A stretch of 64,000 nucleotides of DNA from Candidatus Omnitrophota bacterium (GTDB taxonomy: Bacteria > Omnitrophota > Gorgyraeia > Duberdicusellales > 4484-171), in NCBI GenBank assembly GCA_037146775.1, contig JBAWWL010000009.1:4575-68574 (forward strand), read 5' to 3'. The notes under the pieces are model-generated. The model made no database searches and had not been told where the DNA came from. It saw nothing but the letters and a program-made list of their open reading frames with translations. The first letter of the stretch is position 1. The number at the start of each line of letters is the position of its first letter. Positions 32,401-59,044 of this stretch are shown piece by piece. The translations under genes were made by a program, and so were the position numbers.

Positions 32401-35400
32401 AAACTACGCTTTCAACGCCTGAAGTCACAATAACAGACAACGTTTCGCAAACAAAACTGATGGCTTGCGGAGTAACATTGGGCTTTCGAAGTATTACCTC
32501 AAGAATTCCAACTGTACCTTCGTTAATAAGTCCTGGTTTATTTCTAGCAATATTCTTAAGATCGCTGACCCCATCTATATAGCCGTCCTGTAAAAGATTT
32601 TCAATTGCTTGCAGCGCTTCTTGAGCCCTAGCGCCATCTTCTCTGATAGCAATTGTGGCTAACTGATATGTACTTTTCTCTCTACGCAGCTCTTCTATAG
32701 ATTTCGATGGGATTTCTTGATTAAGCGGTGAAGAAACCGCAGAAGAAACTCTTACTTCACCAATCTTTCTTTCTAATCCTGCTAATTCTTGAGATATCTG
32801 GTTAATCTCTCTTCGTAAAATTTCCTCTTTTAGCCCAGGATCTTCGCCTTTAGTTAAATCGGCCTGTAATATTTCTAATCGTTCACTTAACCTCTGCCGG
32901 TCACGGGCAAGTATTGTCCTTATTGTTTCAGGAAATGCCGCGGGAGCCAGCATTTCTTCTGTAATACGTATATATTTACCTTCGCCAAGCCACCAAATCT
33001 TTTCTGCGGGAAGATTTTCTGAATAGCTACTTATCACTACGCGGCCGGCTAAACTTCTGCCAAGAAATTGTTTTATCTGCGCCTGCTCCTGGTTATTAAA
33101 AGAACGCGTATAGATAACTGCAACCTTTTTAACTCCTAATTCACTAAGCGGCTGGGTGTATCTCGTGAGGCTGGCTGTTTCCATCTCTACAAGAGGCAAG
33201 CGTGAAACTACATATCCAAAAAGATATTGACCGTCAGCCCAAATCTCCACATACGACCAGTTTTCGGTTGGTGAGTCAGTGTATTCTATTTTTGCAGCTG
33301 GTATTTGCGCTTGCGGATAACCCAATAACCATCCTTGCTGACTATCAATAAACGCCTTTTTGATGGTTGTGATAATATCTCCGTCTTGCACACGGTAAAC
33401 TTCCGGATGGTTTGAAATTTCTGTCTTAATAGCCTGTGGGTTATAAAATAATAATTTTTGGCTAGCATGGCCATCAGATTCTTGTAGCGTAACTTCTATT
33501 TCTTGAACATTTCCTCCAGGCAAATGCGCAAGCAGCTGTCTAGCTTGCTGCGCATTCGCGGGACTAGAGTCATCAAGCAAATATGACGGCTTTGCTCCAA
33601 GTGCAACTAAAGTAATGGGTAAAGTGAGTGGATTATTTCTATTATCAGCAACAAACTTTTTCATTCCTTGAGAGGCAATCGCTGACGAAGCAGTGCTCTT
33701 CACTGTAATATCTTCAGCCTGTTTTGCTGCCGGCGATGATGCTGAACCATCAGGACCAACTACTAATTTTTTTAACTCATCAAGCTGCGAATATTTACCT
33801 TCGGGAATAATCGGCCGGCCCTGCCAAAAATTAATTCTTCTTTCTTCACCAACACCAAAAACATGTCTACCAAATCTCCCCAAACCTATATCAGCGCAAT
33901 AAAAAGATATAGCCAATTCAAATAATTGTCCTTTAGGTATACCTAAAGAAACTACTCCAGCAGTTAGCAAACCATCTGCTTCTGCCGGCGAGATAGCTTT
34001 TGAGATTGTTCTACCAACAATATCTTCGCCAACAAGATAACAAATAAGATTAATTTCAAATTCTGAAAACTGGGAACTTAAAGTTTCTCTGATATATCTT
34101 ACCGAAGCCTGTTCGTGCTCTGAGTGACTACGAATAAGCGCTTTACCGATATCATGCAGCAAAGCTGCTATTACCATCAGCCGTTTTATCGGTATAGCGG
34201 CACCACTGCTATCCCGTAAAGACATCGCATCGATTGTCCTATCTTCATAAACACTATTCATCGTATACAAAGTATGATCTAATAAATTTCCTCCGCCCCT
34301 GGGAGTAGCTATAGGCGCTAGTTGCGGAGCTACTTGCACAAGAAGCTGCATCACTCTCGTGTCACCATCAAGAAGAATACGCCTACTTAATTCATCTTTA
34401 TACTCCTGGGATAAGCCAGAATTATTTATTGCTGCAATGGCTTGCTGTTCAGGCTTGACTGTTTCTTGCGCATTTGCCACAGCTAATTCTGCCGCAGAAG
34501 GAGATACTTGACCAAAATCTTCTAATTTCACCGTACTCACATCGTGTTCGCTATATACATAAGTTGTTGGATCACGGTCAAGATATCCTACTTCGGCTTT
34601 TAAATAATCAAAAAGAGTTATTTTTCTTCCAATCCAAGGATGAGCCATCATTTTTATAGGAGTCGCATTGTAAGCAGTTGCTTTTACAACTTCCCTGTCA
34701 ACCAATACCTCTGCCAATAAGCCTTGCAATAATCCTTGATTATCCTGTCCTGGTTGATAATCAGCTTCGAGACGCGCCTGGAACCTATCTAAAAACTGCG
34801 CATCCAGATAACCAAATAGAGTTTGGAAATATGCAGGCCGCAAGCCGCAGATACCGCCTTCATCATTAGGCCTTAAGTTATTAACTTCTCTTTCTAAAGC
34901 TGCTCGCGCTTGAGCGATTGCCGATTTTGACAGTCTGCCCTGGGCTATCCATTGAAGAATTTTATAAATATTCTGTTTTGCACGTTTCTCGGCTAACTCC
35001 CATACCATGACCTTTTGAACACTATTGGCGATAGTATCCTGGTCTATGCGTTGTGTCCTTTTTCTCGCGCACTCAGGAAGGGGGACAGCATTATCTCTAT
35101 TCGCGCGATCTGCTTCGGGACTGTTAACATAACAAAAAGCTAAGGTCACGGCTGTATCAACCGCTCTATATTTATGGCCAATCAATTCTAAAAATAACAA
35201 ATCAAACTCATGAAAGGCTTTTGCTCCATGAGAATCTTTTATTTCCCCACCTCTAAGTGCGTAATGTACGATTGCCGTGGATAAAGCGTGAGTCACATAA
35301 TTAGCCTCTGCATTATCATGTTCGGAACTTCCTCTGAAAACATTGTTCATATTGTCAAAAATTACTGGCACAATCAGCCGTTGCCCTCTATGCGCATATA

Positions 35401-38400
35401 GTCTGAATCCGCCTTGAGCATTGAGCAGGGCCATCGTGCCTGCCTCACTAGTAACTACTCCAGCGTCTAGTAAAGTATTGTGCAATTCTGTGAATGTACA
35501 TGTAGGAAGGGTGATCTTCTGCGCTATGGGAGTCATCTCTGCTAAGACCCCTCTCTCTCCGGCAAAAGACTGCGCCATATCGCTTGTTTGAGAAATAATA
35601 TTGTTTTGTTTATTCCATAAAAATGCTTCTAGTATTTGGTCGGGAGATACCTCGCCACGCGCTACAAGCTGACGCAGCTCTTCGTACGCTCCACGCATAA
35701 GCAGGCAACGAGCATGTAAAATGGGCGATTCCCCTAAATACGGCGCGAGCATTCCATCATTTATGTCTTCGGCCATACGCCAATATCCTTCGACAGCATA
35801 TTCATCATCGAGAAAAACCATTAACAAGCTCCAGGAAGATCCGTATGCGGCTTTTTTAATCAATTTTTCCACTAAAGCATCATATCCGGGAAAACAAAGT
35901 AAATTATCCAGTCTAGTAAAAAACGCGTCTAACCCTTGCGGTCCGGCAACACGCAATATTTCCTTAAATGCCCCTATCGCATACTCTCTATCAATTTGTA
36001 ACAACATAGTAAATGATCCTGCGATCTGGCGTAAAAATCTCTCAATATCAATTCTTTGATTACTAGGCACCTCTTCGTTCCTACGCACTAGTAATTCAAC
36101 CAATTCATTATCAAATGCTACACGCGCCATAGCAAGGTTTCCGCCTGCAATCTCATGAATTACCATACGCTCATTAAAAAGGTTGTCACGAGAAGCGGAA
36201 TATTTAACAGCCTGGACCACAGTATGTAATTGCTCTCGAGTTAAACTTAAGTTCTCATGCGCCTCCAGGAATCTTGGCACAAGATATGCCAATCGTCTAC
36301 ACACTGGATTACCGCTAGTATCCCTTATAGCATTAACAACAAAAGGAAGCTGTGCGGGATTATCATGAAGTGCTCTACCTATAGCTGTGAGAAGCGGATC
36401 GTAGTCATCCCGGGATGGCTCTCGAGTTTTTCTGGCATTTACTAAAAGTGGTATAAGCGTAAGATCTCCCGCGGGTGCATCTTCAAGCACGCCTGCTAAA
36501 TCATGATCATACGACAATCCTTTTTCACCGCATAATACTGTGAGCAAACCTGGGTTATGAGAAAAAGCTTTTTGCAATACCCTAACTAGGGCTTCTCTGC
36601 GTTCTCTTTGATGGACAGTTGTTTCATTAAGCATATCAACAAACACTTGAGTATCAGCTAAAGTAAATGCCTGAGGAGAACGTGAAATCAAATCTTCTAA
36701 GGCTGCTACTAGAAAATTAAATGTCTCCCCTGTTCGGACTTCATTAATTGCAAAAACTAAAGGCCCTGTTTCATCCATAAGCAGCGTAACATCATAGTTA
36801 TTATTCCTGATCGCTCCTAGAGCACCAGAAAGAACGGATTGCCTTACTTTGTCATCTTGCGTTCGATGGGCAGCTTTAAGCAAATACACAATTTGTGCTG
36901 CGCTTGGTTTTATACGAGTGTTATGCACCAAGCTAAGATTTAAGACATCCGCATAGGCTGCTTCCGTCGGACTAGAAACCGTGCCTTGGACTGTTTGATC
37001 ATGCACGGCTCTAAATTTTTCAAACACTAGATCAAATAATTCCGGGTTATGTGCGATAGCGCGGCTATAAGCATGAGAAAGATCAATTCCTCTGGTAATA
37101 GCTTTGTCAAAAGCTTGTGTTTGTTCCGAAGTAATCGTAATGTGCGACCTGTCAAATCCCTTGATAAATATAAATTCTAAAAAACTAATAAATTGTTTAT
37201 TACTACCATCGCGTAGATTATCAAGCGCATTTAATACTTCCGACAGCAACTCATGGTTTCTCGCTAAGGCCTCTCCGATAACTTCCCATGCAAGCTTATA
37301 TCCCAAATCCCGGTCCTTTATTGTTTCTAAAACCTTCATTGTTCCTGATAAAACATCTGGATTATTTACAAGAGCATACTGCAAAACATGAAAATATAAA
37401 TCTCTATGCGCTGCTTCTACGTTTCCGTCACAAAGAGGTTTAATCACTAAAGTTTCAGCTTCTTGTGCGGAAAGCTTAACCTCTCTACTATTTGAAAGGG
37501 CATTATTTACGGCTGCCAATAATCGTAGCTGCACATCCGTTCGCGATTCACTCGCTAAAGCAGAAATTAAGCGTGTGGTGAGATTGGGATATCTTGAAAC
37601 GTGTACTCCTAAACGCCTCGAAGATAACGACTCACCAGCCACAACACCCTCCATGTACATATCAAAAAATCGATTAATGCTCTCATCCTGGTTAGCGTCA
37701 GTCGTAACCGCCGACGACACTACTGATTTAGTTTCCCCTTCTTTACGCTCTGCATCTTGCGCCTTGCGCTGCCCTACATACGCTGCAACTGCATCTATCT
37801 TTTGTTGGCCCGAAGGATGCGTGTTTGTCGCGGTTTCTGATAAAGGAAATGCTTTCTGTAACTCGTTAACAGCAGCTACTGGCGCATTCCAACCGTAAAT
37901 TGACACAACAATGTCTGTGGCAACTCTATCTACCTGCAACTCGATTTCGGGAGTACTTGGCCCATAAAAACGGTGTCCCACTTCATGAGCGATAAGAAAA
38001 GTAAGGGCCTGATCACTTAAAGCACGTACGGCCTCTGGAGTAACAAGCACAATCCAAAGCCGTTCATTTCCAACATACTCAGCGCTCTCCGGCAACCGGG
38101 GTAAAGAAACTTTTATTCCGTCTCCAAGCTCAATGGTTACACTCTTTACATGCTCTTCAAGTGCACCAGGAGAAGTCGATATATAATCGGTATCAATTCC
38201 AATTGCATGTGGCAACGGTGAAAAATGCAATCTTTCGGCTGCCTGAGTAACAGCCTGGAATCTTCCCTCAAGTCTACGATGCCACTCAGCAAACTGCTCA
38301 CGGGATATATATGTGTAAGCCGCTGCGTATCTTTCGCTAAAATATTCTTCGAGACGTTCTGAAACTGTTGACCTAGTCTGCAAACTCTCTCGCACCTCCG

Positions 38401-41400
38401 AACCCATCTTCTTCTCTATAACAGCCTCTTCTTTTTTTTCTACCGCCGATGACACCGCTGGCCTATCTACTTTCACGTCAATACTACCCTGTTTATTTTC
38501 TGGCATAGTCAACGGCGATGCGGCAGTACCCGGTTTAACATCACCCTTTTTATCAAGAGCAACATTTTGAGGAGACCCTACCTTGGAAGTAACTACATTG
38601 GTGACAGTTGATCCTTCTACTCTTTGACTTGTTTGCTGTAAAATATTAGGAGTAGAATCAATTCCCCCGCCAGGAGGAGTTACGCCAAGATAAGGGCTAT
38701 AGGCATTATATTCGAGAGCAAAAAGCTCTGATTCAGCATAGTGAGCTTGCGGCGAATAGTCAGATCCGATAGTATTACCAAATATATCAACCTGATCAAA
38801 ATTTCCTCTAAGAAAAGCTTTGAAAACCTCAGGGCTCATATTGCGTAATGTATCAATTGCAAGCTGTATTTCTTCGGGAATTCCTGAAGAAAATTCTATA
38901 TAAGTTCCGCCATTTGAATTAATCACTCTAAACACGCCTTCGTCATAAGACCACACCTCAAAAGCGTAAGCGACCATCGCCAAGATATCCAATAAATTCG
39001 ATACATCGGATGCTTGCTTACGAATCGTAGCCTTGCTAATTGTGTCGGGATCAAAAGAAAAGAGCGGATTGGAATTTTGCTGCCCAACAATAGTTCCGTA
39101 ACGGCTAGTGGCAGTATATCCTTCTTTCCAAAGTATTCTTAGCAAAGCAAGATTACGTAGCACCATTTCTTTCAACAATCTTCTGCGGTCAGATGAAGAA
39201 CCAATATCAAGGCCTTGATATTGGAAGAATTCACGGTAACGATATGCCTCTTTTTTCCATTGTCTTTTTCTCCCGCGCCGGTATTCTGGATCAAGACTTA
39301 ACTCTTCAATTCTTTCGGGTATGCCGATTTGATATAGCAAAATTTCCATCTCGTTAACAAGATTATCGGGTATTCCTGATCCTTTAAGAACTTTATCAGC
39401 TTCCACGAGACAAAGTTCTCGATCAACAGTAAGCCCCTCCGCTACACCAGGCCATAATCCTTCTGTTTCTTTTCTTCCCACGAGCGCCACCGGAAGCATA
39501 AGCGGTTGAAATTGCGCTCCAGGTTCCAAAAACATCTCAGCGGCTTCCCGGCTTAAGCCTTGATTTTTTAATTCAGCAAATACCGGGTCATCACCGTCAA
39601 AATATTCGTAGAACTTACTTCTCAACCACCCAGCTGCCCCCACATAAGCCAAATTCTCCTGGATTAAATTACCTCCACGCAGCACGCTCGGAGGATTGCC
39701 CTTGCGGAAAGGCGCTCTGATTCCCATACCTCTGGCAAATTCTTGTTCATCAGCCAACCCTGTACCTTTGAAAACAAACGCACAAGGCTTGCCGTTTCTT
39801 GTAAACTTTGTTGCTATAGCGCGATTATGCATAATATTTCTACTGGGCGCGCATCTGACAGGAATAAGATAAATATTGGCATCGTTGCTATCAACACCAT
39901 AGACATTAAGAATTTCTCTGGCAGTGGCCGACAAACTCCTAACTGGTAAAATGAACCTGCGGCTGATTGCGTCGCGGATAAATTCTTGGCTACTGAAAGA
40001 AGACATTTTAGCCGGCACATAGGTAACGGCCTCTCCGGGAAATGCCTCTTGTAATTGGTTGTTATCGTTATGCAGTTCCCCTAAAGCTCGATAAAGCTCG
40101 CGGGCTATCTCTTTAGGCCTTTGGCCTTGTTTAAATTTACCAAGCGCAAAGTCGCCTAGCGCCGAGGAATTGCGATAGAACTGGCCTATCTCCATAAGTT
40201 CGTTAATCGGCACGCCAGCATCTACCATCGCACTGAAACCTTCGGGAGATAATTCATAGGCTTCAACTGCGGACTCTAAAATATCGCTATCATAAATATT
40301 TCGTTGAAATGCAATTTCACAGATATTGACTATCGCATCATGAGTGGCAATAGTACGCCTGCCTACGATACCATTACGCTTCAACGCCTCGTGTAACCGG
40401 ATAACCGCTGCTTCAAAATCGTTGAAACCAATCACCACCCTAGAGTTAGTAGATATACGATTCCTGATCGCGGCTTGAATCAAACCAAAAAAGAACCCGT
40501 CGGAGTACCGTTCATCAATAACTCTTCTGGTGCGTTCAGTAATTTCTATGGTATCAATTCCTTCTGTGCGGCTAAGTTCTTCCAACCACACACCAGCCAC
40601 AATATATGCTCGGTATCGTTCCCTCACGGGAATACTCAAGAAATCTTGAGAAAATCTTGCAAATCTCTTTTGTAGCTGATCTTTGGCTAAACGTATTCTT
40701 TCTTCCTGTTGAACTCTTTCCTCGTGCGCTCGTTTTTTCTTACCCCCGGTTAATCGATCAAACAAGCTAGAGAGAAAAGACTCTGGTTTTACTTCATCTG
40801 CGCTCAAAGGAGAAGAAATACTCTTACCGTCTGATAGATTTTCAACCTTCTCTTCAAAACCATCCACGCCCGTCTCCAGCATCACCTCTAAGTTAAAGCT
40901 CTTGCCTCGGTTGGAAGAGATTACTCGGCTGGGGTCATTGGTGATGGTAAGAGCGCTAGAAGCTTTAGTAAAGTCACAGCCTCCGGAGTAGTAGCGGCGG
41001 TTGATGTTCTGCTGGGTATTGGTATCGAATTCGTCTTTGATGTAGTTGTAGACGCCTTGTCTGTAGGCAGAGAGGTATTGTTTGTAGATCTTCTCTTTGA
41101 TTTGTTTATCGGGGGTATCGATACCTTTAGTCTTTTTCCGGTTAACATAGATCTGACCGACTAAGCTTTCTTTGAGCTGCTTTTTAAACCATACGGAAAG
41201 AATTAAAGAGTTGTAGACCTGCCGTAAAGGAGCGAAGTTTTTGCCTTGATTGACTTCTTTTTCGATCTCAGGCAGGATGAGTTCTTTTAAGACTTCAGAG
41301 GAAACCTTGTTTAAGGCTTTTACTTTGTCTTCTTTGATCTTGGAGGTGCTATATTCCTGGTTATTGAGGTTGTTTTTGAGTGCCAGGTAGTCTTCTTCCA

Positions 41401-42052
41401 GCATGACTTTGAGCTTACTCTCTACCACAAAGGCGCTTGAATCTTCCTGATAGACCACCGCTTTATCCGGGACAATCCAGATCTTGTTGAAGGTATTAAT
41501 CGGTAGTTCAGTGGTACCATAGAGCTGGTAGACTTTCTTGTATACCTTCTCCCAGAACTGTTTACCTAGAGGACTCTCCGGATAAGTGATAGAAGCCATT
41601 AATTGTTTTAAGATGTAGTCTTCGGCAAGTAGGTCTTTACCCAGCTCCGTAATACCCAGTTCCTGGGGGATGACTCGTTCTTTTTCATAGGGTGAGAGGT
41701 TAACCCAGAGGTCTTCTTCCGGTATGGTTAAAGAGGCCAAGAAGTGCTTGATCAGTTTCTCTGAACTCTGTTTTAGTTCTTTTTGGCTAGAAGTACTGTC
41801 TCCGCTATCTAAGATAAAGTCAAACTTGAAAGGCTCATCAGGATAGACCTTGATTCCTTTTAAGACCAGAGGGTTAAAAGCCGGGCTTACTTCCAAAAGC
41901 TGGGTGGGTGCAGGAAGAAAAGAAGCGTAGGTTTTGGGGATAGCCTTATCGATATAACCGGCTAAAGCAGTGATAAAGATCGCTGCTGCCACAAACAGAG
42001 CCACTGCCTTGAAGGGAATACTGGCGCGTTTTTGGTTAATATAGATTATCAT
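23456..42052 (-). CDS. Giant protein 1 (6198 aa). N-terminal signal-anchor, then a multi-enzyme architecture: HEVGH zincin, HD domain, caspase/CHAT-like, HEIIH zincin, GT4 glycosyltransferase, class I SAM methyltransferase, JAB/MPN-like.
   Basis: Complete ORF from the six-frame track. Hydrophobic N-terminus (AVALFVAAAIFITALAGYI). Motifs located on the nucleotide sequence: FLIAHEVGHRF (~37970-37985), AALLHDIGKAL (~34140-34165), ITFSGHA...IVFDACYAHDF (~30890-31050), LIIHEIIHTNF (~29170-29190), REGFALVPLEAASMGVPVIGSDIPG (~26350-26425), ILHVGTGSGWMVAVLADLL (~25702-25765), YHSHFKGSKYPEGPSKLD (~23967-24025). Confidence 0.9.
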   Translation of the reverse strand: MIIYINQKRASIPFKAVALFVAAAIFITALAGYIDKAIPKTYASFLPAPTQLLEVSPAFNPLVLKGIKVYPDEPFKFDFILDSGDSTSSQKELKQSSEKLIKHFLASLTIPEEDLWVNLSPYEKERVIPQELGITELGKDLLAEDYILKQLMASITYPESPLGKQFWEKVYKKVYQLYGTTELPINTFNKIWIVPDKAVVYQEDSSAFVVESKLKVMLEEDYLALKNNLNNQEYSTSKIKEDKVKALNKVSSEVLKELILPEIEKEVNQGKNFAPLRQVYNSLILSVWFKKQLKESLVGQIYVNRKKTKGIDTPDKQIKEKIYKQYLSAYRQGVYNYIKDEFDTNTQQNINRRYYSGGCDFTKASSALTITNDPSRVISSNRGKSFNLEVMLETGVDGFEEKVENLSDGKSISSPLSADEVKPESFLSSLFDRLTGGKKKRAHEERVQQEERIRLAKDQLQKRFARFSQDFLSIPVRERYRAYIVAGVWLEELSRTEGIDTIEITERTRRVIDERYSDGFFFGLIQAAIRNRISTNSRVVIGFNDFEAAVIRLHEALKRNGIVGRRTIATHDAIVNICEIAFQRNIYDSDILESAVEAYELSPEGFSAMVDAGVPINELMEIGQFYRNSSALGDFALGKFKQGQRPKEIARELYRALGELHNDNNQLQEAFPGEAVTYVPAKMSSFSSQEFIRDAISRRFILPVRSLSATAREILNVYGVDSNDANIYLIPVRCAPSRNIMHNRAIATKFTRNGKPCAFVFKGTGLADEQEFARGMGIRAPFRKGNPPSVLRGGNLIQENLAYVGAAGWLRSKFYEYFDGDDPVFAELKNQGLSREAAEMFLEPGAQFQPLMLPVALVGRKETEGLWPGVAEGLTVDRELCLVEADKVLKGSGIPDNLVNEMEILLYQIGIPERIEELSLDPEYRRGRKRQWKKEAYRYREFFQYQGLDIGSSSDRRRLLKEMVLRNLALLRILWKEGYTATSRYGTIVGQQNSNPLFSFDPDTISKATIRKQASDVSNLLDILAMVAYAFEVWSYDEGVFRVINSNGGTYIEFSSGIPEEIQLAIDTLRNMSPEVFKAFLRGNFDQVDIFGNTIGSDYSPQAHYAESELFALEYNAYSPYLGVTPPGGGIDSTPNILQQTSQRVEGSTVTNVVTSKVGSPQNVALDKKGDVKPGTAASPLTMPENKQGSIDVKVDRPAVSSAVEKKEEAVIEKKMGSEVRESLQTRSTVSERLEEYFSERYAAAYTYISREQFAEWHRRLEGRFQAVTQAAERLHFSPLPHAIGIDTDYISTSPGALEEHVKSVTIELGDGIKVSLPRLPESAEYVGNERLWIVLVTPEAVRALSDQALTFLIAHEVGHRFYGPSTPEIELQVDRVATDIVVSIYGWNAPVAAVNELQKAFPLSETATNTHPSGQQKIDAVAAYVGQRKAQDAERKEGETKSVVSSAVTTDANQDESINRFFDMYMEGVVAGESLSSRRLGVHVSRYPNLTTRLISALASESRTDVQLRLLAAVNNALSNSREVKLSAQEAETLVIKPLCDGNVEAAHRDLYFHVLQYALVNNPDVLSGTMKVLETIKDRDLGYKLAWEVIGEALARNHELLSEVLNALDNLRDGSNKQFISFLEFIFIKGFDRSHITITSEQTQAFDKAITRGIDLSHAYSRAIAHNPELFDLVFEKFRAVHDQTVQGTVSSPTEAAYADVLNLSLVHNTRIKPSAAQIVYLLKAAHRTQDDKVRQSVLSGALGAIRNNNYDVTLLMDETGPLVFAINEVRTGETFNFLVAALEDLISRSPQAFTLADTQVFVDMLNETTVHQRERREALVRVLQKAFSHNPGLLTVLCGEKGLSYDHDLAGVLEDAPAGDLTLIPLLVNARKTREPSRDDYDPLLTAIGRALHDNPAQLPFVVNAIRDTSGNPVCRRLAYLVPRFLEAHENLSLTREQLHTVVQAVKYSASRDNLFNERMVIHEIAGGNLAMARVAFDNELVELLVRRNEEVPSNQRIDIERFLRQIAGSFTMLLQIDREYAIGAFKEILRVAGPQGLDAFFTRLDNLLCFPGYDALVEKLIKKAAYGSSWSLLMVFLDDEYAVEGYWRMAEDINDGMLAPYLGESPILHARCLLMRGAYEELRQLVARGEVSPDQILEAFLWNKQNNIISQTSDMAQSFAGERGVLAEMTPIAQKITLPTCTFTELHNTLLDAGVVTSEAGTMALLNAQGGFRLYAHRGQRLIVPVIFDNMNNVFRGSSEHDNAEANYVTHALSTAIVHYALRGGEIKDSHGAKAFHEFDLLFLELIGHKYRAVDTAVTLAFCYVNSPEADRANRDNAVPLPECARKRTQRIDQDTIANSVQKVMVWELAEKRAKQNIYKILQWIAQGRLSKSAIAQARAALEREVNNLRPNDEGGICGLRPAYFQTLFGYLDAQFLDRFQARLEADYQPGQDNQGLLQGLLAEVLVDREVVKATAYNATPIKMMAHPWIGRKITLFDYLKAEVGYLDRDPTTYVYSEHDVSTVKLEDFGQVSPSAAELAVANAQETVKPEQQAIAAINNSGLSQEYKDELSRRILLDGDTRVMQLLVQVAPQLAPIATPRGGGNLLDHTLYTMNSVYEDRTIDAMSLRDSSGAAIPIKRLMVIAALLHDIGKALIRSHSEHEQASVRYIRETLSSQFSEFEINLICYLVGEDIVGRTISKAISPAEADGLLTAGVVSLGIPKGQLFELAISFYCADIGLGRFGRHVFGVGEERRINFWQGRPIIPEGKYSQLDELKKLVVGPDGSASSPAAKQAEDITVKSTASSAIASQGMKKFVADNRNNPLTLPITLVALGAKPSYLLDDSSPANAQQARQLLAHLPGGNVQEIEVTLQESDGHASQKLLFYNPQAIKTEISNHPEVYRVQDGDIITTIKKAFIDSQQGWLLGYPQAQIPAAKIEYTDSPTENWSYVEIWADGQYLFGYVVSRLPLVEMETASLTRYTQPLSELGVKKVAVIYTRSFNNQEQAQIKQFLGRSLAGRVVISSYSENLPAEKIWWLGEGKYIRITEEMLAPAAFPETIRTILARDRQRLSERLEILQADLTKGEDPGLKEEILRREINQISQELAGLERKIGEVRVSSAVSSPLNQEIPSKSIEELRREKSTYQLATIAIREDGARAQEALQAIENLLQDGYIDGVSDLKNIARNKPGLINEGTVGILEVILRKPNVTPQAISFVCETLSVIVTSGVESVVSRKATKVLLDALNTAALDRTSYDSEEIASQVYSQVARTLTEIAIYSNNTNLIDMCFDTFERVLNENRLEAHSYSIATNALLRIVRKKSDRARASTIEAFERNLNASDRGITTHSYSLRAIVDLSQERSDLIARSTVDAVKLHSEKNGDAMRALAAIGGNQYTGQYADECIDEILRVLNIEGDFTVVPVVVAAAVAAQEFARKRSGLFASPTRRQALEHAAASRQRPAAFFGEIAGVYNVLFSQHPDWAEPATVATLEGIMKRDDLANDDYATAVAALTAIRNYNRQMIKTDSLAELLLQLPFRFYGHTFIHHIVYQSQGFKTRTSHMEDEERYEVGLAVYYHLRASGIIPEEASEAEIVQAFDFIIAGRRVVQETLPDDRQSQNELYSSRRTAVNIFHEEMRAEQTRYEALQTSSDMSSGQIHSYVGGSTVPATADVITDVKDAIITHKGPLTITFSGHANREGFALSPSQIISVEELAVWLIERGNLNNVNIVFDACYAHDFVDNLNRTLHNLGVSVDITTLAIAHKNKQAVGGSLRSIERYHSAGQPFTIGQAMRAMRRSDVFIHQVANIFCPRWRLIEAGVQDPFEKRTAADESYRQLPVNVGLTGQPGQVSTGDMEVLASPADTILKETNGVNPIAFSILGSTTFDLSEQTIGIAGTTITVKPVGPRTINGLVRPADNGAMLLVNTQAFSEMLFVLNHGTRSERENYINKLFSTIPNLTGDQRVSLGRIKAHFNQAPPLSREEQNVLVSHILIHEFTECYALRTGNTRIHAHTAAMMAEAEFTQRQESAGFNVQAVRDAFAPIALLRDIRQANTYSYRYPTLQVGQETQPATASSSLQIKDSLVSSPKEDSAIASSPLAQPSRDIAAVVNIYQIMDEYLRVYEENAERVVRNDQFKQETGLDIAAMVRKFLPSSTGKPVSGKETSSVSAEQQSREELDRARARISTLKALMAEDSSPDRLGVFVRALSMVEGGAKITGKNIPAAQLPRDDQVFALHAIKAEAAQNESLQRVFNEEGVLFIPQNSWLTKLLGLRRESGMNIRLSDGNAHIDVILVNDRIVGVPNITKLIIHEIIHTNFTEGVLTVFAKSRQLWAFYHLLLEAVTEELARDVMLRIALRNKELREILGVGAEQVSEDLAEAMLNSAIYGTAEAKVAAAAGKIRNVYRNERVLLHALMKLYENWSDGYEQVVKRFLVQGDESPMKTLFADSWDLAIRIAVELLTIPERDAPYEHQQALRMFAAGINPGQISRLLPIVLKLMRLVKQTDIVPKSKKAEELSEQLTACLYEAARNVFKDFSKNEEFVLDRDGESLIEALIKSAKEVISQRTRLESTDFEVRLYGVDDAFRRSLANESGHDFASSPLEENSLSFNERGMPMNVSTERARVYHGVRGASRVGGDAIDKVKSIIRQKAIMSLKRVDLIDSQDSGIRKLMVFFYEGILRSMRPADLITLEQSNFDLRNYILLNKTSIEANTDPRARHLLGDASLTRMETYGMLNIDDVLRNYCIWVFESEQAVQGYYGREAYFEFDIPQSEFRDQRIIIGEIPLEYARRLVISDGARKEELKELLRGQGLGRIEVVVSPGFASSALTDNSAKLEETPQSKKAPSFVASSAVDSSLSQTPGLDKDFSVGTAGTLLGNDGQVKEARIAELVAHLKSLQSRPTSGTKTYLEQFSLTPTPIENSLLANRTIIQLAPDLKADGISRYAIKLIGMLAARNPGLTQVVFYPDSNKTQETKTLEIGTSKILFIPFAIEEGHELDDLENKISAYVAQDSNVELVVSHLQEYHYGVSDIVTKRNLPFLAYLHNATGFNSSEVWDAAEKYLQPYIFEKLVNNPLVRILTVNPASPEDIRQRFPNARVDWIGPLFEDNNFNSLTDLEREAVSRYLREQYFMRDDDVFILVPNSLDSRKGLPEILDALEGLQFEHFRSKKEFLSGVKVLFVGLGSEQRIHDIEQEIRRRDLTGIAYVAGAVPQEMLRFLYGRANGVLLYSRREGFALVPLEAASMGVPVIGSDIPGVRESIVDRESGLLVPWYADFEQRADALKDGLSRFMSLAPQDRLAWGRRATQHVEQFKPEEWIGRHEETYSETIQDFRQMAETTESAVSSPLAQVELSKKSNDISQSASSAVTATSSQDIFYKNVEDFLSSKKVRLEQIQSILRAMQANPRADFIDMPDIQDAYSLRLPAGYRERALPSGPYLGFVASLLNLKGDEKILHVGTGSGWMVAVLADLLNGGKNSGNGKIYTVEIDPAISRDRQALISPKYQNVEFIRGDAFSELDGIDGIKFDRIIVDGSLPGGISKSLFNRLSQGSGMMVVPVSTGNFSRQPTYAVYRVVRFGPRVFYNSFTQPGWNFEDLRAIPGDILPPEKLETVSSSVISEKTSLTDKSIVSSPIFNRETVEVSFFAQDAAEKVIEAFRDGRVVVLNLKTADAPDLNSANKEIKRTWFKKVKARIENFVHELPWLRPSGNIFGRDIRHPLREMLKNAFFWGNHFNLSLPIGLSIELNDSGKCSKVEVYDTNVVPKPLMVDVSLAHEKDIDLAGATTGTTVIQNIVRYQIFIGKVIDETIQGFKTLAVITPKESAVKKPAEHNTVGDKGTQASSVLSLMEPAKEAFHEEKVSSALNIENDPVAKIFDLRLSQPISRETEWTRIVTPAEALDFHQKWQSSSQGYYAQDYQGKTYNFPLKAWEKMVAWSGRSPDFERKGYFIARSQGDIIEIVDFIPVGSIVMSPRIDNYDKDDSDIEQVNTSGIGTFFPGGERGQILMQRYGINLVDQEILSFESVARGKPGLISMPYHSHFKGSKYPEGPSKLDRKSSKGVDFVYALDSGRGFIFDKNSPSQEVLQNLRSVATQTIGGDVGEETTKDNKTGGIDPSTLLRVNSSESKPGGIDFNPKYLELEVKGSSVKFGRFNIPFDIKKFEGFSFRIINIKAIHNLSSILKTYPVNRDEAQTQSDKVDLALVSHEKYIARKKEDRFESNLYK
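40869..42052 (-). repeat. Copy A of the ~1.18 kb direct repeat (5' coding end of giant gene 1).
   Basis: Same as above. The spurious out-of-frame ORFs 22325..22552 and 40921..41148 in the track are near-identical, which independently marks the duplication. Confidence 0.9.
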
Positions 42053-56615: not shown

Positions 56616-56960
56616 CTACTTTTTTTCCTTCACATCTTCCTTTACTTTCATTAGTTCGTCTTTAAGGTTGTCTTCCAGTTTATCTTTCAGCTTTTCCAAC
56701 CTTGCTATTTCTATCTTGAGTTCGTCCATTTTTACCTTAGTGCTGCCAAGCTCGTCAGACACACCCTTATTTTTCTCGAGCAAAGAAACATTTTCTGCCT
56801 TCAATTCTTCTACTTTCTTCTCTAAAACCATATTCTTTTTAGCCAAATCATCACGATGCCCCGACAACGAATTAATTTGCACTAAAAAAGACACCGCGGC
56901 GATAACCAATACCATAATGAGACCGACAAGCAAACTTAAGATTAACGGCTTATCTTTCAT
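56616..56960 (-). CDS. Membrane-anchored coiled-coil protein (114 aa).
   Basis: N-terminal TM helix LILSLLVGLIMVLVIAAVSFL, then heptad-rich KEDLK coiled coil. It overlaps the start of the upstream OmpA-like gene by 4 nt. Confidence 0.6.
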   Translation of the reverse strand: MKDKPLILSLLVGLIMVLVIAAVSFLVQINSLSGHRDDLAKKNMVLEKKVEELKAENVSLLEKNKGVSDELGSTKVKMDELKIEIARLEKLKDKLEDNLKDELMKVKEDVKEKK

Positions 56961-57613
56961 TTCAGCTCCTCCTCTTTTTCAACCGTTTCTTGGACACCTT
57001 CGTCAGCTATACTTTTTTTATCGACTTTCTTGACAGTTTTAGGCAAAATGACGATCTCGACCCTACGATTAAGCCGTCTTCCTTGTACAGTATCATTGGA
57101 AGAAACCGGATGAAACTCTCCATAACCGCTTGCTGAAAGCCTTTGGGAATGGACGCCTTTCGATTCTAAATATCGAAGAACGCTCAATGCTCGATGAGAG
57201 GATAATTCCCAGTTTGATGTCCACTTAGAATGCCTTATCGGCTCGTTATCCGTGTGGCCTTCTATGCCTATATTATTCTCTGGAGCATTCTCTACAAGTA
57301 TCTTTGCTACTTTCGCTAAACTCGATAGACTTTCTGATTTCAGATCAGCTTTACCGGAATCAAAAAGCACTTCGGAAACAAAGGTAATTACCAAACCTTT
57401 ATCTTCCATGCTCAATCTTACCTGTTTATCCTGTATCTCCCGAGCCAATGCTGTTTCTAACACGCCTTTGGTATTACGCAATGCTTCCAGCTCTTTTTCC
57501 AAAGACTGTATCTTCTCGATATCCGAACGCCTACCTGACTGGAAAATAATAGAACAGCCGCTTGCCAACAATAAAGAAAAAACCAGAAAAAATACTGTCC
57601 ATAACCTTTTCAT
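56957..57613 (-). CDS. OmpA/MotB C-terminal domain lipoprotein (peptidoglycan-associated).
   Basis: Lipobox LLASGC. OmpA-like domain NIGIEGHTDNEPI ... LSSHRALSVLRYL ... NRRVEIVI. Confidence 0.85.
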   Translation of the reverse strand: MKRLWTVFFLVFSLLLASGCSIIFQSGRRSDIEKIQSLEKELEALRNTKGVLETALAREIQDKQVRLSMEDKGLVITFVSEVLFDSGKADLKSESLSSLAKVAKILVENAPENNIGIEGHTDNEPIRHSKWTSNWELSSHRALSVLRYLESKGVHSQRLSASGYGEFHPVSSNDTVQGRRLNRRVEIVILPKTVKKVDKKSIADEGVQETVEKEEELK

Positions 57614-57916
57614 GTGACCCTCCTTTTAGATAATTAGATTTAAGGTATCATAATTAAACGGTAAAGTCAAGTGCTTTGATAGTTCGAAAACTAACGGTAA
57701 TTGTTAGCGTTTTCTATATCTGCACCTTACACAATAGGTGACTATCCGCATCAATAATGGCCTATAAAAAGAATGTAAATATGCGGGCGGAATGATTCGT
57801 ATGTAATCTTCGAAACGAGTCGAAGTCTTACCGCAGTCAAATCATTACATCCGAATATTCGCCTTTGCCACTGCCTAACCTTCAAAAGCCTGAAACCTAT
57901 GTATTAGAGAATATAA

Positions 57917-57962
57917 CGGAGAGGGTGAGATTTGAACTCACGGTGGACACAAGGCCCACACC
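57917..57962 (-). ncRNA. tRNA 3'-half-like fragment: class II variable-arm hairpin, then T-arm (GTGAG TTCAAAT CTCAC), then acceptor 3' strand CCTCTCC and discriminator G.
   Basis: Plus strand cggagagggtgagatttgaactcacggtggacacaaggcccacacc. The T-loop matches TTCRANYC. No matching 5' half lies within 100 nt upstream. Confidence 0.55.
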
Positions 57963-57971
57963 GGTTTTTCC

Positions 57972-58043
57972 GCCAAAATTTATCGAGTAAATTTTGGCGC
58001 GACCTCGCCTCATCAAATATTAAAGTGGCGGGCAAGACCGCCA
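57972..58043. other. Two strong hairpins inside the tRNA spacer. One is a perfect 11-12 bp stem (gccaaaatttatcgagtaaattttggc). The other is a GC stem tggcgg-gcaaga-ccgcca followed on the plus strand by a T-rich run, which is terminator-like.
   Basis: Direct inspection of complementarity at 57971-57999 and 58026-58043. The strand of function is ambiguous. Confidence 0.4.
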
Positions 58044-58069
58044 AATTATAAATTATTTTTTAAAAATCA

Positions 58070-58156
58070 CGGAGGCGGAAGGATTCGAACCCTCGATGCC
58101 CTTACGGGCATAACGGTTTTCAAGACCGCCGCATTCAACCACTCTGCCACGCCTCC
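58070..58156 (-). tRNA. tRNA-Ser (anticodon TGA), class II with a long variable arm.
   Basis: Reverse complement: GGAGGCG TG GCAGAGTGGTTGAATGC G GCGGT CTTGAAA ACCGT TATGCCCGTAAGGGCATC GAGGG TTCGAAT CCTTC CGCCTCC G. Acceptor, anticodon and T stems all pair. The CCA is not encoded. Confidence 0.85.
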
Positions 58157-58246
58157 GAATCAACCAAAACCGAAGTTTTGATCTCGTTTTGTTGTTTACT
58201 GCTTTATCCAAAAAATGGTTGGATGTATACTTTAAACCATTTACAC

Positions 58247-58293
58247 CTTCGCTTACAGCGAAGCATACATACAACCACTCAGCCACCTCTCCT
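58247..58293 (-). ncRNA. tRNA 5'-half-like fragment with a Tyr (GTA) anticodon arm. Its acceptor 5' strand GGAGAGG is complementary to the 3' fragment at 57917-57962.
   Basis: Reverse complement: GGAGAGG TG GCTGAGTGGTTGTATGTATG CTTCG CTGTAAG CGAAG. The D-arm is poorly paired. No T-arm follows it. Confidence 0.5.
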
Positions 58294-58492
58294 TAGTGTT
58301 TCTTAGGTTTTTGGAGTCTACCGCAGGTAGCGAATAAAAACATTAGAAACACTTGTCTCGACGCATTCTCGGGAAATTTCGTAGAAATTTACTGAGTATA
58401 TAGATGCGTCGAGGTTATGTCAAAATAGCATCTACCTTAGCATTTCTTAAGTTTTTCGATTCCAATAGAACAAACAAATACCTAATAGCCGC

Positions 58493-58918
58493 TTACCGTT
58501 TCGCCTTAAAAAAATCTTTCAAGAGCTGGCTGCAATCTTTTTCCAAAATACCTTTTTTAACTTTAATTTTATGGTTTAATTTTAGCCTATTAATATCTAT
58601 TTTTGACCCAAAAGCGCCAGTCTTAGGATCAGAGGCAGCAAACACCACCTTCTCTATCCGCGAAAGGATAAGTGCACCCGCACACATTGCACACGGCTCC
58701 ATTGTAGCATATAAGGTACAGTTGTGAAGCCATTTTGACTTCAAGGCAGCGGTGGCTTGTGTAATTGCAAGCATTTCTGCGTGGGCAGTCGGATCTCTCA
58801 ATCGTTCCACCTGATTATGAGCTTGAGCAATAATTTTATTTCGGTAAACAACAACCGCGCCCACCGGAACTTCATCTTCCTCAAAGGCACATTGCGCCTG
58901 AAGCAGAGCTTTTTGCAT
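58493..58918 (-). CDS. tadA: tRNA-specific adenosine deaminase TadA.
   Basis: CDA-fold zinc motifs HAEMLAI and PCAMCAGAL. The start is probably MQKALLQAQCAFEEDEVPVGAVVV (58918). The track ORF extends to 58999. Confidence 0.85.
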   Translation of the reverse strand: MQKALLQAQCAFEEDEVPVGAVVVYRNKIIAQAHNQVERLRDPTAHAEMLAITQATAALKSKWLHNCTLYATMEPCAMCAGALILSRIEKVVFAASDPKTGAFGSKIDINRLKLNHKIKVKKGILEKDCSQLLKDFFKAKR

Positions 58919-59044
58919 ATAAAATGTGTGGCGGAAAGACTTATGCAGATAGTGCAGGGCATTCACGCTATTGTTATGACTTGCTATTTCTGAAGCCATG
59001 CGTATTTTATTTTCGATTATAATTGTATACTCTGGTCAGGCAGG

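What the first reader, a model, noticed from the sequence alone, without database searches (positions are those of the whole stretch)
57917..58293. tRNA-Tyr-like gene apparently split by a ~284-nt insert that carries an intact tRNA-Ser
On the minus strand a tRNA 5' half (GGAGAGG acceptor, GUA anticodon arm, 58293-58247) is followed 284 nt later by a class II variable arm, a perfect T-arm and the complementary acceptor strand CCTCTCC plus G (57962-57917). Joined together they would make a ~93-nt tRNA-Tyr. The intervening segment holds a complete tRNA-Ser(TGA) and two strong hairpins. Both junctions carry GGTGT (CGAAG|GTGTA... and ...AAACC|GGTGTG), resembling a short target duplication. Possible explanations are a disrupted tRNA with an inserted small element, an unusual intervening sequence, or fragments left over from an integration event.
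Basis: seen in the sequence. Interest (0 to 1): 0.6.

Follow-up and report, generated by a model that had tools for sequence, protein, structure and literature searches.

The report
tRNA-Ser fragments beside small inserted hairpin elements
The supposed split tRNA-Tyr is really leftover end-pieces of serine tRNA genes sitting next to two copies of a previously undescribed ~135-base hairpin element that inserts into serine tRNA genes of Omnitrophota bacteria while keeping the gene intact.

Summary
The sequences are there, but they are not a split tRNA-Tyr. The window is a Ca. Omnitrophota chromosome with the gene order tadA, tRNA-Ser(UGA), ompA. The "GTA anticodon arm" is the inner hairpin of a conserved forked-hairpin module, and GTA is its triloop (GAA in other copies). 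The "3' half" is nt 36-88 of the clade's native tRNA-Ser(UGA), 53/53 identical to the intact genes of relatives. I found six distinct module copies in five genomes. Each abuts an orphan 17-21-nt tRNA-Ser end fragment, and a second copy of that fragment lies 132-136 nt away inside an intact tRNA. Fourteen of 20 stem pairs covary. Two filled-versus-empty site pairs (L014/L019, L004/L091) show that the unit is an insertion flanked by 18-19-nt direct repeats of the tRNA 3' end. The window holds two copies facing each other around the intact, functional tRNA-Ser(UGA). Their repeats are crossed between two tRNA alleles. The best reading is a small non-autonomous integrative element family that targets TTG|AA in the T-loop or D-loop of tRNA-Ser genes. 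The recombinase and the exact history of the locus are unknown.

The parts
58493..58999 (-). tadA (tRNA adenosine deaminase), the upstream anchor gene of the slot
   Evidence: Pfam MafB19-deam and dCMP_cyt_deam_1. A source names it TadA.
58395..58423 (-). Sigma-70-like promoter candidate (TTGACA-17-TATACT, 11/12). It lies about 100 nt upstream of the orphan fragment and about 235 nt upstream of the intact tRNA.
   Evidence: Consensus scan. This is a consensus match only; function is inferred.
58272..58292 (-). Orphan tRNA-Ser 5'-end fragment (nt 1-21, N-type: GGAGAGGTGGCTGAGTGGTTG).
   Evidence: It matches the native tRNA-Ser(UGA) of L004/L009/L025 at 20/21. It matches the closest relative L085, whose contig ends there, at 23/23 including the following TA. 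It matches the 5' end of the intact tRNA 136 nt downstream at 18/21 (D2, 111).
58214..58271 (-). The outer stem pairs with the last bases of the orphan fragment.
   Evidence: CM R2 scores it at 87 bits. Covariation is shown. The DNA fold z-score is -5.4.
58157..58213 (-). Spacer of element 1 (T-run, GGATAAAG, and a CAAAAC-TTCG-GTTTTG hairpin at 58180-58165)
   Evidence: It aligns with the L096 unit (GGATAAAG ... TTGATnn|GGAG).
58070..58156 (-). Intact tRNA-Ser(UGA), allele class 'A' (GGAGGCG acceptor). This is the functional gene, and its nt 1-21 are the inner repeat of element 1.
   Evidence: ARAGORN and Rfam at 59.3 bits. The same allele class occupies this slot in L091/L092.
57969..58069 (-). 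Segment Y between the intact tRNA and the truncated tRNA. It contains a terminator-like hairpin at 58043-58026 and a long hairpin at 57999-57971.
   Evidence: I8. Similarity to the upstream flank of the native tRNA in L094 is only suggestive.
57917..57968 (-). 5'-truncated native (N-type) tRNA-Ser(UGA), nt 36 to G73.
   Evidence: A 53/53 exact match (including one flank base) to the intact genes in L004 and L009, and 51/53 to L025.
57857..57916 (+). Spacer of element 2 (read on the + strand, antisense to the tRNAs)
   Evidence: The period from orphan start 57783 to inner-repeat start 57918 is 135 nt, as in the rest of the family.
57800..57856 (+). Forked-hairpin module of element 2 (TATG-TAAT-CTTCGA..TCGAAG ... 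ATTA-CAT-C-CGAAT). It is partly degenerate.
   Evidence: CM R2 scores it at 31.6 bits, E about 3e-4. It adopts the same fold, with a DNA z-score of -2.4.
57783..57799 (+). Orphan fragment GCGGGCGGAATGATTCG, the reverse complement of an A-type tRNA-Ser 3' end (T-loop to acceptor). It is the outer repeat of element 2.
   Evidence: It matches the reverse complement of the intact tRNA's 3' end at 14/17, against 9/17 for the N-type. It corresponds to repeat D5.
56957..57613 (-). OmpA-family gene, the downstream anchor of the slot
   Evidence: Pfam OmpA. Synteny is conserved in L004, L009, L025, L086, L091 and L094.

Best explanation
The locus is the conserved tadA, tRNA-Ser(UGA), ompA slot of an Omnitrophota chromosome. 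It has been remodelled by two copies of a ~135-nt non-coding insertion element that targets tRNA-Ser genes.

**Element layout.** Read in its own orientation, each element is:
- an outer tRNA-end fragment that starts GGAGAGG and ends ..TTG;
- TATG followed by a forked-hairpin module, whose outer helix pairs with the last bases of that fragment;
- a ~55-nt spacer;
- a second copy of the 17-21-nt tRNA end, which continues (|AA...) into the rest of an intact tRNA.

**Two insertion types.** The break is at TTG|AA. That is TT|CAA of the T-loop when the element lies antisense and downstream of the tRNA (3'-type). It is the look-alike GGTTG|AA of the D-loop when the element lies sense and upstream (5'-type). 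The tRNA stays intact, and the displaced tRNA end remains as an orphan beside the module.

**The window.**
- Element 1 is 5'-type (58271-58136, with its orphan at 58292-58272).
- Element 2 is 3'-type and lies on the other strand (57800-57934, with its orphan at 57783-57799).
- The two elements face each other around an intact tRNA-Ser(UGA) of allele class A (the working gene) and a 5'-truncated copy of the clade's native allele N.

**Shown:** the anatomy, the family, the structural covariation, the insertion polymorphism and the direct repeats.

**Inferred:**
- The elements are moved in trans by an unidentified site-specific recombinase.
- That recombinase possibly acts on folded single-stranded DNA, because the hairpins carry d(GNA) triloops and covary.
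- The crossed repeat types (N outside and A inside on the left; N inside and A outside on the right) arose by recombination between N-bearing and A-bearing versions of this locus through the elements or the tRNA sequences.
- The N copy then lost its 5' part by deletion.
For: **The native gene is tRNA-Ser(UGA).** Intact orthologues in L004, L009, L025 and L094 lie directly upstream of ompA. The window matches them at nt 1-21 (20/21) and at nt 36 to the end (53/53).

**Homologous units elsewhere.** Six metagenome contigs (L095-L100) carry the same start, GGAGAGGTG..GAGTGGTTG|TATG, then a hairpin of different sequence but the same shape, then ACATCCAACCATT and GGATAAAG. In L096 the unit is in tandem with a 135-nt period.

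**3'-type copies.** These lie next to tRNA-Ser(GCU) in L014 and L011 and next to tRNA-Ser(GGA) in L004. Each abuts a copy of that tRNA's own 3' end.

**Structure.** On 4 sequences, 96% of cells are paired and 11/20 pairs are compensatory. On 6 distinct sequences, 95% are paired and 14/20 are compensatory. In both cases 0/500 shuffles reach this, and slid controls give 25-38%. Every copy folds alone into the same forked hairpin, with DNA z-scores of -3.7 to -5.4 and -2.4 for the window's second copy.

**Constant period.** The periods are 136, 135, 135, 132 and 136 nt.

**Insertion shown twice.**
- L019 (empty) against L014 (filled, +132 nt, 18-nt direct repeat): the flank is about 92% identical over 200 nt.
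- L091/L092 (empty) against L004 (filled, +136 nt, 19-nt direct repeat).

**Other support.**
- The module is absent from the same slot in L004, L084, L086, L091 and L094.
- The window's second module and the A-type orphan (14/17) are shown.
- Allele class A is resident in this slot in L091/L092.
- The closest relative, L085, has the native promoter-like flank followed by GGAGAGGTGGCTGAGTGGTTG|TA at its contig end.
- Six of seven inner or secondary hairpin loops are GNA, and d(GNA) triloops are unusually stable in DNA (PMC3201870, PMC13037366).
- Orphan tRNA fragments are a known by-product of integration at tRNA genes (PMC9897764).
Against: - No recombinase gene is linked to any copy. Neighbouring genes are housekeeping, and no autonomous relative was found (viral scans gave nothing).
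- In the window the outer and inner repeats differ (18/21 and 9/17), unlike the clean copies in L014 and L004. A single simple integration into the present genes therefore cannot explain the locus, and extra recombination and deletion steps must be assumed.
- The N fragment starts at nt 36, not at the T-loop.
- For the 5'-type there is no complete filled-versus-empty pair, because all contigs break in or after the unit.
- Covariation alone cannot distinguish a DNA hairpin from an RNA hairpin. The only strand hint is two G.T pairs and no A.C pairs.
- There are only six distinct copies, all from loci fetched because they lie near tadA, so the copy number and target range of the family are unknown.
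Confidence: 0.68

Rival explanations
1. The module is primarily a functional RNA: a structured leader or trailer, a processing or termination signal, or a small RNA of tRNA-Ser operons. On this view the duplicated tRNA ends arise from recombination or gene conversion rather than from a mobile element.
For: Strong compensatory covariation is typical of structured RNAs. In the window and in L096 the hairpin is followed by a U-rich tract. A promoter-like site lies upstream of the window's copy. The 496-nt region folds better than shuffles, with z = -4.6.
Against: The module lies sense and upstream of some tRNAs and antisense and downstream of others, so no single transcript context is shared. The U-tract is not conserved in the 3'-type copies. 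The clean insertions with 18-19-nt direct repeats and empty sites in sister genomes need a DNA insertion mechanism in any case. No Rfam family matches. GNA triloops are a DNA-hairpin hallmark (PMC3201870).
Confidence: 0.12
2. There was a one-off accident and there is no element family. A single native tRNA-Ser(UGA) gene was interrupted when about 303 nt of foreign DNA carrying another tRNA-Ser(UGA) replaced nt 22-35. The two flanking pieces are decaying pseudogene relics.
For: The 5' and 3' pieces both match the native N allele and together lack only nt 22-35. The intact gene belongs to a different allele class, 73% identical. Orphan fragments are rare in the other fetched loci.
Against: The sequence right after nt 21 is a conserved, covarying module found in five other genomes with the same 132-136-nt period. 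The intact tRNA starts exactly one period (136 nt) after the orphan. A second module with an A-type orphan sits downstream of the N fragment. The left junction, TTG|TA, recurs in L085 and L095-L100.
Confidence: 0.07
3. This is the reader's reading: one tRNA gene (Tyr, GUA) carries a ~284-nt intervening sequence that is removed to give a mature tRNA, or the two halves are joined in trans.
For: ARAGORN accepts the in-silico joined halves as tRNA-Tyr. The acceptor strands are perfectly complementary and pair in the minimum-free-energy fold of the whole region.
Against: The orthologue is tRNA-Ser(UGA) and the 'anticodon arm' is not tRNA-derived. The discriminator is G73 and the variable arm is Ser-type. 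The Rfam tRNA model rejects the 5' piece. ARAGORN intron mode finds nothing. There is no group I intron signal and no bulge-helix-bulge motif. In L096 the same 5' unit is tandemly repeated with no 3' partner in between. All Ser isoacceptors share this acceptor stem.
Confidence: 0.02
4. The arrangement is a metagenome assembly chimera at tRNA repeats.
For: The source is a MAG. Contigs of several assemblies break in exactly this region. The stretch 57946-58120 is covered only by the MAG contig.
Against: An independent assembler reproduces element 1 with its left junction, and element 2 with both orphan junctions, base for base. The junctions lack the long shared k-mers needed for a de Bruijn mis-join. 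Homologous units occur in six other samples and in four other MAGs. Tandem repeats explain the contig breaks.
Confidence: 0.03

Closest known systems
Integrative elements and genomic islands that integrate into tRNA genes and are flanked by a direct repeat of the tRNA 3' end (the T-loop sublocation typical of P4-like tyrosine integrases). This rests on my own knowledge; partial tRNA genes as by-products are described in PMC9897764.
   Same: An intact tRNA plus an orphan copy of its 3'-terminal 17-19 nt. The orphan keeps the native downstream flank. Sister genomes have empty sites.
   Different: The inserted DNA is only about 115 nt plus the repeat, with no integrase or any ORF. Its size is constant and it has a conserved forked hairpin whose outer helix includes the repeat end. 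A mirror-image 5'-type sits upstream and duplicates the tRNA 5' end as far as the D-loop; I know of no description of that.
Non-autonomous derivatives of integrative elements (cis-mobilisable elements, CIMEs) and bacterial miniature elements such as MITEs and REPINs. CIMEs rest on my own knowledge; REPINs are described in PMC3116915.
   Same: Short, non-coding and hairpin-forming. Presence varies between close relatives. Tandem accretion occurs (L096). They would depend on a recombinase supplied in trans.
   Different: MITEs and REPINs have terminal inverted repeats and short fixed target duplications, and they do not restore a disrupted gene. Here the 17-21-nt repeat is defined by the tRNA end. 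No parent element is known.
Recombination substrates that act as folded single-stranded DNA: integron attC sites, CTX-phage attP(+) used by XerCD, and IS200/IS605 ends (my own knowledge).
   Same: An imperfect hairpin with conserved unpaired bases (the T.C mismatch), covarying stems and stable DNA-type triloops. The stem reproduces part of the target duplex.
   Different: The polarity of the GTT.../...AAC boxes is opposite to attC. No IntI, Xer-type or TnpA gene is linked. The long direct repeats are not produced by IS200/IS605 transposition. This is a resemblance only and was not tested.
Archaeal split or intron-containing tRNA genes, and the mobile-element model for their origin (Caldiarchaeum tRNA-Thr; PMC3293823).
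   Same: A tRNA 5' fragment lies upstream of a complete tRNA of the same isotype, with an inserted element between them.
   Different: The organism is bacterial. There is no splicing motif and no evidence that the fragments are used. The element is about 135 nt and has no recombinase gene.

Membership tests
Functional tRNA-Tyr (bacterial) | The covariance model or tRNA finder calls a tRNA in the native sequence. | tested here: not met
   ARAGORN (normal and intron modes) and Rfam (gathering, permissive and truncated modes) call only the tRNA-Ser. Only an artificial join is called Tyr.
Functional tRNA-Tyr (bacterial) | An A73 discriminator, and orthologues that are tRNA-Tyr. | tested here: not met
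   The discriminator is G73. The orthologous genes are tRNA-Ser(UGA).
Functional tRNA-Tyr (bacterial) | No other tRNA-Tyr(GUA) gene in the genome (which would make this one necessary). | not testable with these tools
   Only the 64-kb window is held. It contains no tRNA-Tyr, and the rest of GCA_964613555.1 could not be scanned.
tRNA interrupted by a group I intron | A group I ribozyme fold inserted in the anticodon loop. | tested here: not met
   There is no Intron_gpI match at E<=10. The real breakpoints are in the D-loop (nt 21/22) and at nt 35/36, and nt 22-35 are missing.
Archaeal-type spliced or split tRNA | A bulge-helix-bulge motif at the exon-intron junctions, or complementary leaders that bring the halves together. 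| tested here: not met
   Folding of the junctions shows no such helix. The genome is bacterial.
tRNA-targeting integrative element (att-site duplication) | A direct repeat of the tRNA end flanking the inserted DNA, with an intact tRNA at one end. | tested here: met
   L014 has an 18-nt repeat and L004 a 19-nt repeat. In the window the repeat is 21 nt (18/21) for element 1 and 17 nt (9/17 between outer and inner; 14/17 to the other allele) for element 2.
tRNA-targeting integrative element (att-site duplication) | An empty site in related genomes with the same flanks. | tested here: met
   L019 against L014, and L091/L092 against L004. This was not available for the 5'-type.
tRNA-targeting integrative element (att-site duplication) | An integrase or recombinase encoded in or next to the element. 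| tested here: not met
   The element has no ORF, and neighbouring genes are housekeeping. It can therefore be at most a non-autonomous member.
MITE | Terminal inverted repeats at both ends and a short target-site duplication of fixed length. | tested here: not met
   The inverted repeat is internal to one end (the module), not at both termini. The repeats are 17-21 nt and are bounded by the tRNA end.
Integron attC site | 5'-RYYYAAC ... GTTRRRY-3' boxes forming the outer stem, adjacent to gene cassettes and IntI. | tested here: not met
   By inspection of the sequences, the module reads GTTGTAT...ATCCAAC, which is the opposite polarity. There are no cassettes and no intI nearby.
Known RNA family (Rfam 15) | A match to a curated covariance model. 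| tested here: not met
   There is no meaningful match to the module region.

The most novel reading that the evidence does not exclude
The forked hairpin is the folded single-stranded attachment site of a new class of tRNA-Ser-targeting mini-elements. Its outer helix mimics the tRNA-gene target (T-loop, or the quasi-symmetric D-loop). A host or unlinked recombinase inserts it at TTG|AA while it supplies a replacement tRNA end. Because each insertion swaps in a foreign tRNA end, successive 5'-type and 3'-type insertions and recombination between copies drive replacement of whole tRNA-Ser alleles. That would explain the crossed N/A repeats in the window and the gene-body-only swap between L004 and L091.
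Probability: 0.2. Interest if true: 0.75.

Novelty: new variant of a known kind. Interest (0 to 1): 0.55.

Why it matters
- It removes a false lead: there is no bacterial split tRNA-Tyr here.
- It replaces that lead with a concrete, testable object. This is a ~135-nt structured insertion element that enters tRNA-Ser genes from either end without destroying them.
- The 5'-end (D-loop) version mirrors the textbook rule that integrating elements use the 3' part of tRNA genes.
- The hairpin that incorporates the target sequence suggests a recognition mechanism of the folded-DNA kind.
- These elements also matter practically. They leave tRNA fragments that confuse tRNA annotation, and they break metagenome assemblies at this locus (six contigs end in the tandem units).
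- They may contribute to turnover of tRNA alleles in a phylum known only from metagenomes.

Tried and rejected
- **Group I intron or other Rfam family in the insert:** none found.
- **Bulge-helix-bulge splice motif:** none found.
- **GGTGT as a target-site duplication:** rejected. It is not at the homology boundaries, and a 5-mer recurs by chance.
- **Homology of the 'anticodon arm' to any tRNA:** none above shuffles.
- **Rfam tRNA model in truncated mode on each half:** no tRNA hit.
- **Similar DNA in phage records:** only the tRNA-Ser matched. Viral contigs gave 0 hits for the alien tRNA, for the native 3' half and for three element junctions.
- **The spurious ORF across the 5' fragment/X/tRNA used as a probe of the protein databases:** only the tRNA-encoded part matched. 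The exhaustive HMMER search of the X-encoded part found only itself.
- **Metagenome scan for the 23-mer:** it found only L085 and an unrelated low-GC contig, L088.
- **Y segment as a homologue of the native upstream flank in L094,** implying a deletion between two AAAACCG repeats: it is the top hit of 148 flanks, but 21/150 shuffles reach its score without the AAAACCG. I kept it only as a possibility.
- **X and the 200 nt upstream of the orphan against the slot flanks of relatives:** nothing significant.
- **My own mid-session conclusion** (one native gene hit by a single 303-nt insert) was abandoned.
- **Several single-event models for the crossed repeats** (Campbell integration, unequal crossover, one integrase event) were worked through by hand. 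None reproduces the observed order.
Full report
**What is in the sequence.** On the minus strand, 58292-58247 reads GGAGAGGTGGCTGAGTGGTTGTATGTATGCTTCGCTGTAAGCGAAG. Positions 57962-57917 read GGTGTGGGCCTTGTGTCCACCGTGAGTTCAAATCTCACCCTCTCCG. A complete tRNA-Ser(TGA) lies between them at 58156-58070. ARAGORN calls the artificially joined halves tRNA-Tyr(gta) for 208 of 320 junction choices. On the native sequence, however, nothing calls a tRNA in either half. ARAGORN in intron mode finds nothing, and neither does Rfam at gathering, permissive or truncated settings. There is no group I intron signal and no bulge-helix-bulge motif.

**Genomic setting.** The neighbouring genes are tadA, a GGDEF/HD-GYP protein and cheB upstream, and ompA-family, uppS, cdsA and dxr downstream. 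The window comes from a Candidatus Omnitrophota MAG, GCA_964613555.1. Two independent Logan contigs of run SRR12676968 are identical to the window. One runs from tadA to 58121 and the other from 57945 past ompA. The middle 176 nt rest on the MAG contig only.

**It is tRNA-Ser, not tRNA-Tyr.**
- In relatives with the same gene order (L004, L009, L025, L094), the gene directly upstream of ompA is an intact tRNA-Ser(UGA): GGAGAGGTGGCTGAGCGGTTGAAAGCGCCGGTCTTGAAAACCGGTGTGGGCCTTGTGTCCACCGTGAGTTCAAATCTCACCCTCTCCG.
- The window matches it at nt 1-21 (20/21; 58292-58272) and from A36 to the end (53/53; 57968-57916). Only nt 22-35 are absent.
- It folds as a perfect 7-bp stem with a GTA triloop.
- All Ser isoacceptors of the clade share the GGAGAGG/CCTCTCC acceptor and G73. 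The complementarity of the two halves therefore does not show that they came from one gene.
- The GGTGT repeat is not at the true boundaries.

**The turning point.** Six contigs from six samples (L095-L100; TadA 77% identical) carry the following unit about 75 nt after tadA: GGAGAGGTGCGTGAGTGGTTG|TATGGGCG-CTCCGAT-GAA-ATCGGAG-...-CGCACATCCAACCATT...GGATAAAG. This has the same layout as window 58292-58158 but with compensatory differences in the stems. In L096 it is tandemly repeated with a 135-nt period, and every contig ends in or just after it.

A covariance model built from these sequences then found further copies:
- next to tRNA-Ser(GCU) in L014 and L011;
- next to tRNA-Ser(GGA) in L004;
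- a second copy in the window itself, at 57789-57863 on the plus strand.

In L014, L004 and L011 the module lies antisense and downstream of the tRNA. It abuts a copy of that tRNA's own 3' end (for example CAAATCCCTGCCTCTCCG).

**Common architecture, read in the element's orientation.**
- An outer tRNA-end fragment that begins GGAGAGG and ends ..TTG.
- TATG, a 3-4-bp middle stem, a 7-bp hairpin with a GNA triloop, about 17 nt (often a second small hairpin), the complementary 3-4 nt, then CAT, an unpaired C opposite an unpaired T, and CAA...
- The outer helix formed by CAA... pairs with the last bases of the tRNA fragment.
- A spacer of about 55 nt.
- A second copy of the tRNA fragment, continuing |AA... 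into the intact tRNA.

The period is 132-136 nt in every case. The structure is strongly supported. On six distinct copies, 95% of cells are paired and 14 of 20 pairs show compensatory change. No shuffle of 500 reaches this, and slid controls give 25-38% (four-sequence version). The six-sequence alignment was fitted to the model, which favours the structure. The four-sequence MAFFT alignment gives the same answer. Each copy also folds alone into the same forked hairpin.

**It is an insertion.**
- L019 has tRNA-Ser(GCU) followed directly by CCAGTCTTTTTATTAAGC.... L014 has the same tRNA, then 132 extra nt ending in a second CAAATCCCTGCCTCTCCG, then the same flank, about 92% identical over 200 nt.
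- L091/L092 have tRNA-Ser(GGA) followed by TGTTCTACCTTATCCG.... L004 has the same tRNA, then 136 extra nt ending in a second CAAATCTCTGCCTCTCCGT, then TGTTTTACCTTATACGG....
- The module is absent from the tadA-ompA slot of L004, L084, L086, L091 and L094.
- In both orientations the break is at TTG|AA in the element's frame. This is TT|CAA of the T-loop for the 3'-type and GGTTG|AA of the D-loop for the 5'-type.
- In the closest relative on the tadA side (L085, 81%), the native promoter-like flank shared with L004, L025 and L091 is followed by GGAGAGGTGGCTGAGTGGTTG|TA, and the contig ends there. That is what a 5'-type insertion predicts.

**Map of the window (minus strand, 5' to 3').**

| Coordinates | Feature |
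|---|---|
| 58423-58395 | promoter-like site |
| 58292-58272 | orphan N-type 5' end |
| 58271-58214 | module 1 |
| 58213-58157 | spacer |
| 58156-58070 | intact tRNA-Ser(UGA), allele class A; its first 21 nt are the inner repeat (18/21) |
| 58069-57969 | segment Y, with a terminator-like hairpin |
| 57968-57917 | N-type tRNA nt 36-88; its last 17-18 nt are the inner repeat of element 2 |
| 57916-57857 | spacer of element 2 |
| 57856-57800 | module 2, on the plus strand |
| 57799-57783 | orphan A-type 3' end: 14/17 to the intact tRNA, 9/17 to N |

The flank to ompA follows. The two elements face each other. Their repeats are crossed: N outside and A inside on the left, N inside and A outside on the right.

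Allele class A is not exotic. L091/L092, whose flanks are about 95% identical to those of L004, carry an A-class tRNA in this slot, while L004 carries N. The gene bodies are only 74% identical.

I could not derive the present order from a single event. The least strained account has three steps:
1. N-bearing and A-bearing versions of this locus recombined through the elements or through the shared tRNA segments. N and A share an exact 15-mer in the anticodon arm.
2. This left two tRNA-Ser(UGA) copies in the slot.
3. The redundant N copy then lost its 5' part. A deletion between two AAAACCG repeats is possible but only weakly supported.

**Mechanism: what is shown and what is inferred.**
- *Shown:* small structured units inserted at tRNA-Ser ends, with 17-21-nt direct repeats, intact tRNAs and empty sites in sister genomes.
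- *Inferred:* movement by a trans-acting site-specific recombinase. The direct repeats match the classic signature of integration at tRNA genes (PMC9897764, and my own knowledge of P4-type integrases), but no recombinase gene is linked and no parent element was found.
- *Further inference:* the substrate is folded single-stranded DNA. This rests on the covarying stems, the conserved T.C mismatch, the outer helix that reproduces the target sequence, the GNA triloops (stable in DNA; PMC3201870, PMC13037366), and the presence of two G.T pairs but no A.C pairs.
- *Not excluded:* an RNA role for the module.

**Novelty.** I found no description of such an element in Rfam or in the paper library. The nearest known things are tRNA-targeting integrative elements and their non-autonomous derivatives. 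The constant ~135-nt size, the hairpin that incorporates the repeat, and above all the mirror-image 5'-type make it a new variant of that kind.

Noticed in passing
window 3-23459 (-) and 23459-42052 (-): There are two adjacent giant open reading frames. One has at least 7,819 codons and runs off the window start; the other has 6,198 codons. Giant genes are a known Omnitrophota trait (my own knowledge).
   Followed up: partly
window 58291-58318 and 58435-58462 (direct repeat, 82%); 58295-58312 / 58336-58353 (18-bp inverted repeat): The motif AAAAACYTAAGAAAYRCT occurs three times around the promoter-like site upstream of the orphan fragment, twice direct and once inverted. One copy overlaps the first two bases of the fragment. 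It occurs nowhere else in the 64 kb. Its meaning is unknown.
   Followed up: partly
L004:4441-5075 versus L091:2585-3015: The tRNA-Ser(UGA) gene bodies are only 74% identical (alleles N and A'), while both flanks are about 95% identical right up to the gene boundaries. This is an allele swap confined to the tRNA body. A' looks mosaic: A-like ends with an N-like anticodon arm.
   Followed up: partly
L095-L100 (six JGI samples), e.g. L096:1641-1902: All six contigs carrying the same TadA end within or just after the tandemly repeated 135-nt unit, so this element systematically breaks short-read assemblies. The JGI contigs L085 and L087 and the Logan contigs also break inside this locus.
   Followed up: yes
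L088:1762-1843 (-), contig LUMI01001596.1: An unrelated low-GC contig, with neighbours that look like alr, prfA, rpmE and rpsI by eye, carries the identical 24-mer GGAGAGGTGGCTGAGTGGTTGTAT after a promoter-like sequence. It then continues into unrelated DNA with no module and no tRNA. It may be a decayed 5'-type junction in another lineage, or a coincidence.
   Followed up: partly
L090:2810-3011: In a high-GC genome, an intact tRNA-Ser(CGA) 91% identical to the window's intact tRNA is followed within about 110 nt by two orphan tRNA 3' fragments. One comes from a different tRNA-Ser and starts in the anticodon loop. The other is a T-loop-to-end copy of the first tRNA.
   Followed up: no
L084:3781-4419: A 212-aa ORF with no Pfam match sits between tadA and a third allele class of tRNA-Ser(UGA) (GGAGGAG acceptor). 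L086 has a 742-aa ORF with no Pfam match between that tRNA and ompA. The slot accumulates cargo.
   Followed up: partly
L091:134-460, L004:4704-4920 and L004:1665-1800, L094:2649-2800: A different repeat of about 100 nt recurs in tandem downstream of several tRNA-Ser genes: TTGTTTTACC..., the hairpin AAAATCATCnAACCAGAAATGGAGATGATTTT, then AACAACGGATTCTG and a further hairpin.
   Followed up: no
window 57966-57876 (-): At a lowered ARAGORN threshold (ps80) a spurious 'tRNA-Leu(caa)' is called starting inside the truncated tRNA fragment. This shows how such fragments can generate false tRNA calls.
   Followed up: yes
L004-L028 and L101 (loci around tadA): tRNA-Ser genes of all isoacceptors cluster around tadA across Omnitrophota, in varying order: GCU right after tadA in most, GGA or UGA before or after it in others.
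   Followed up: partly
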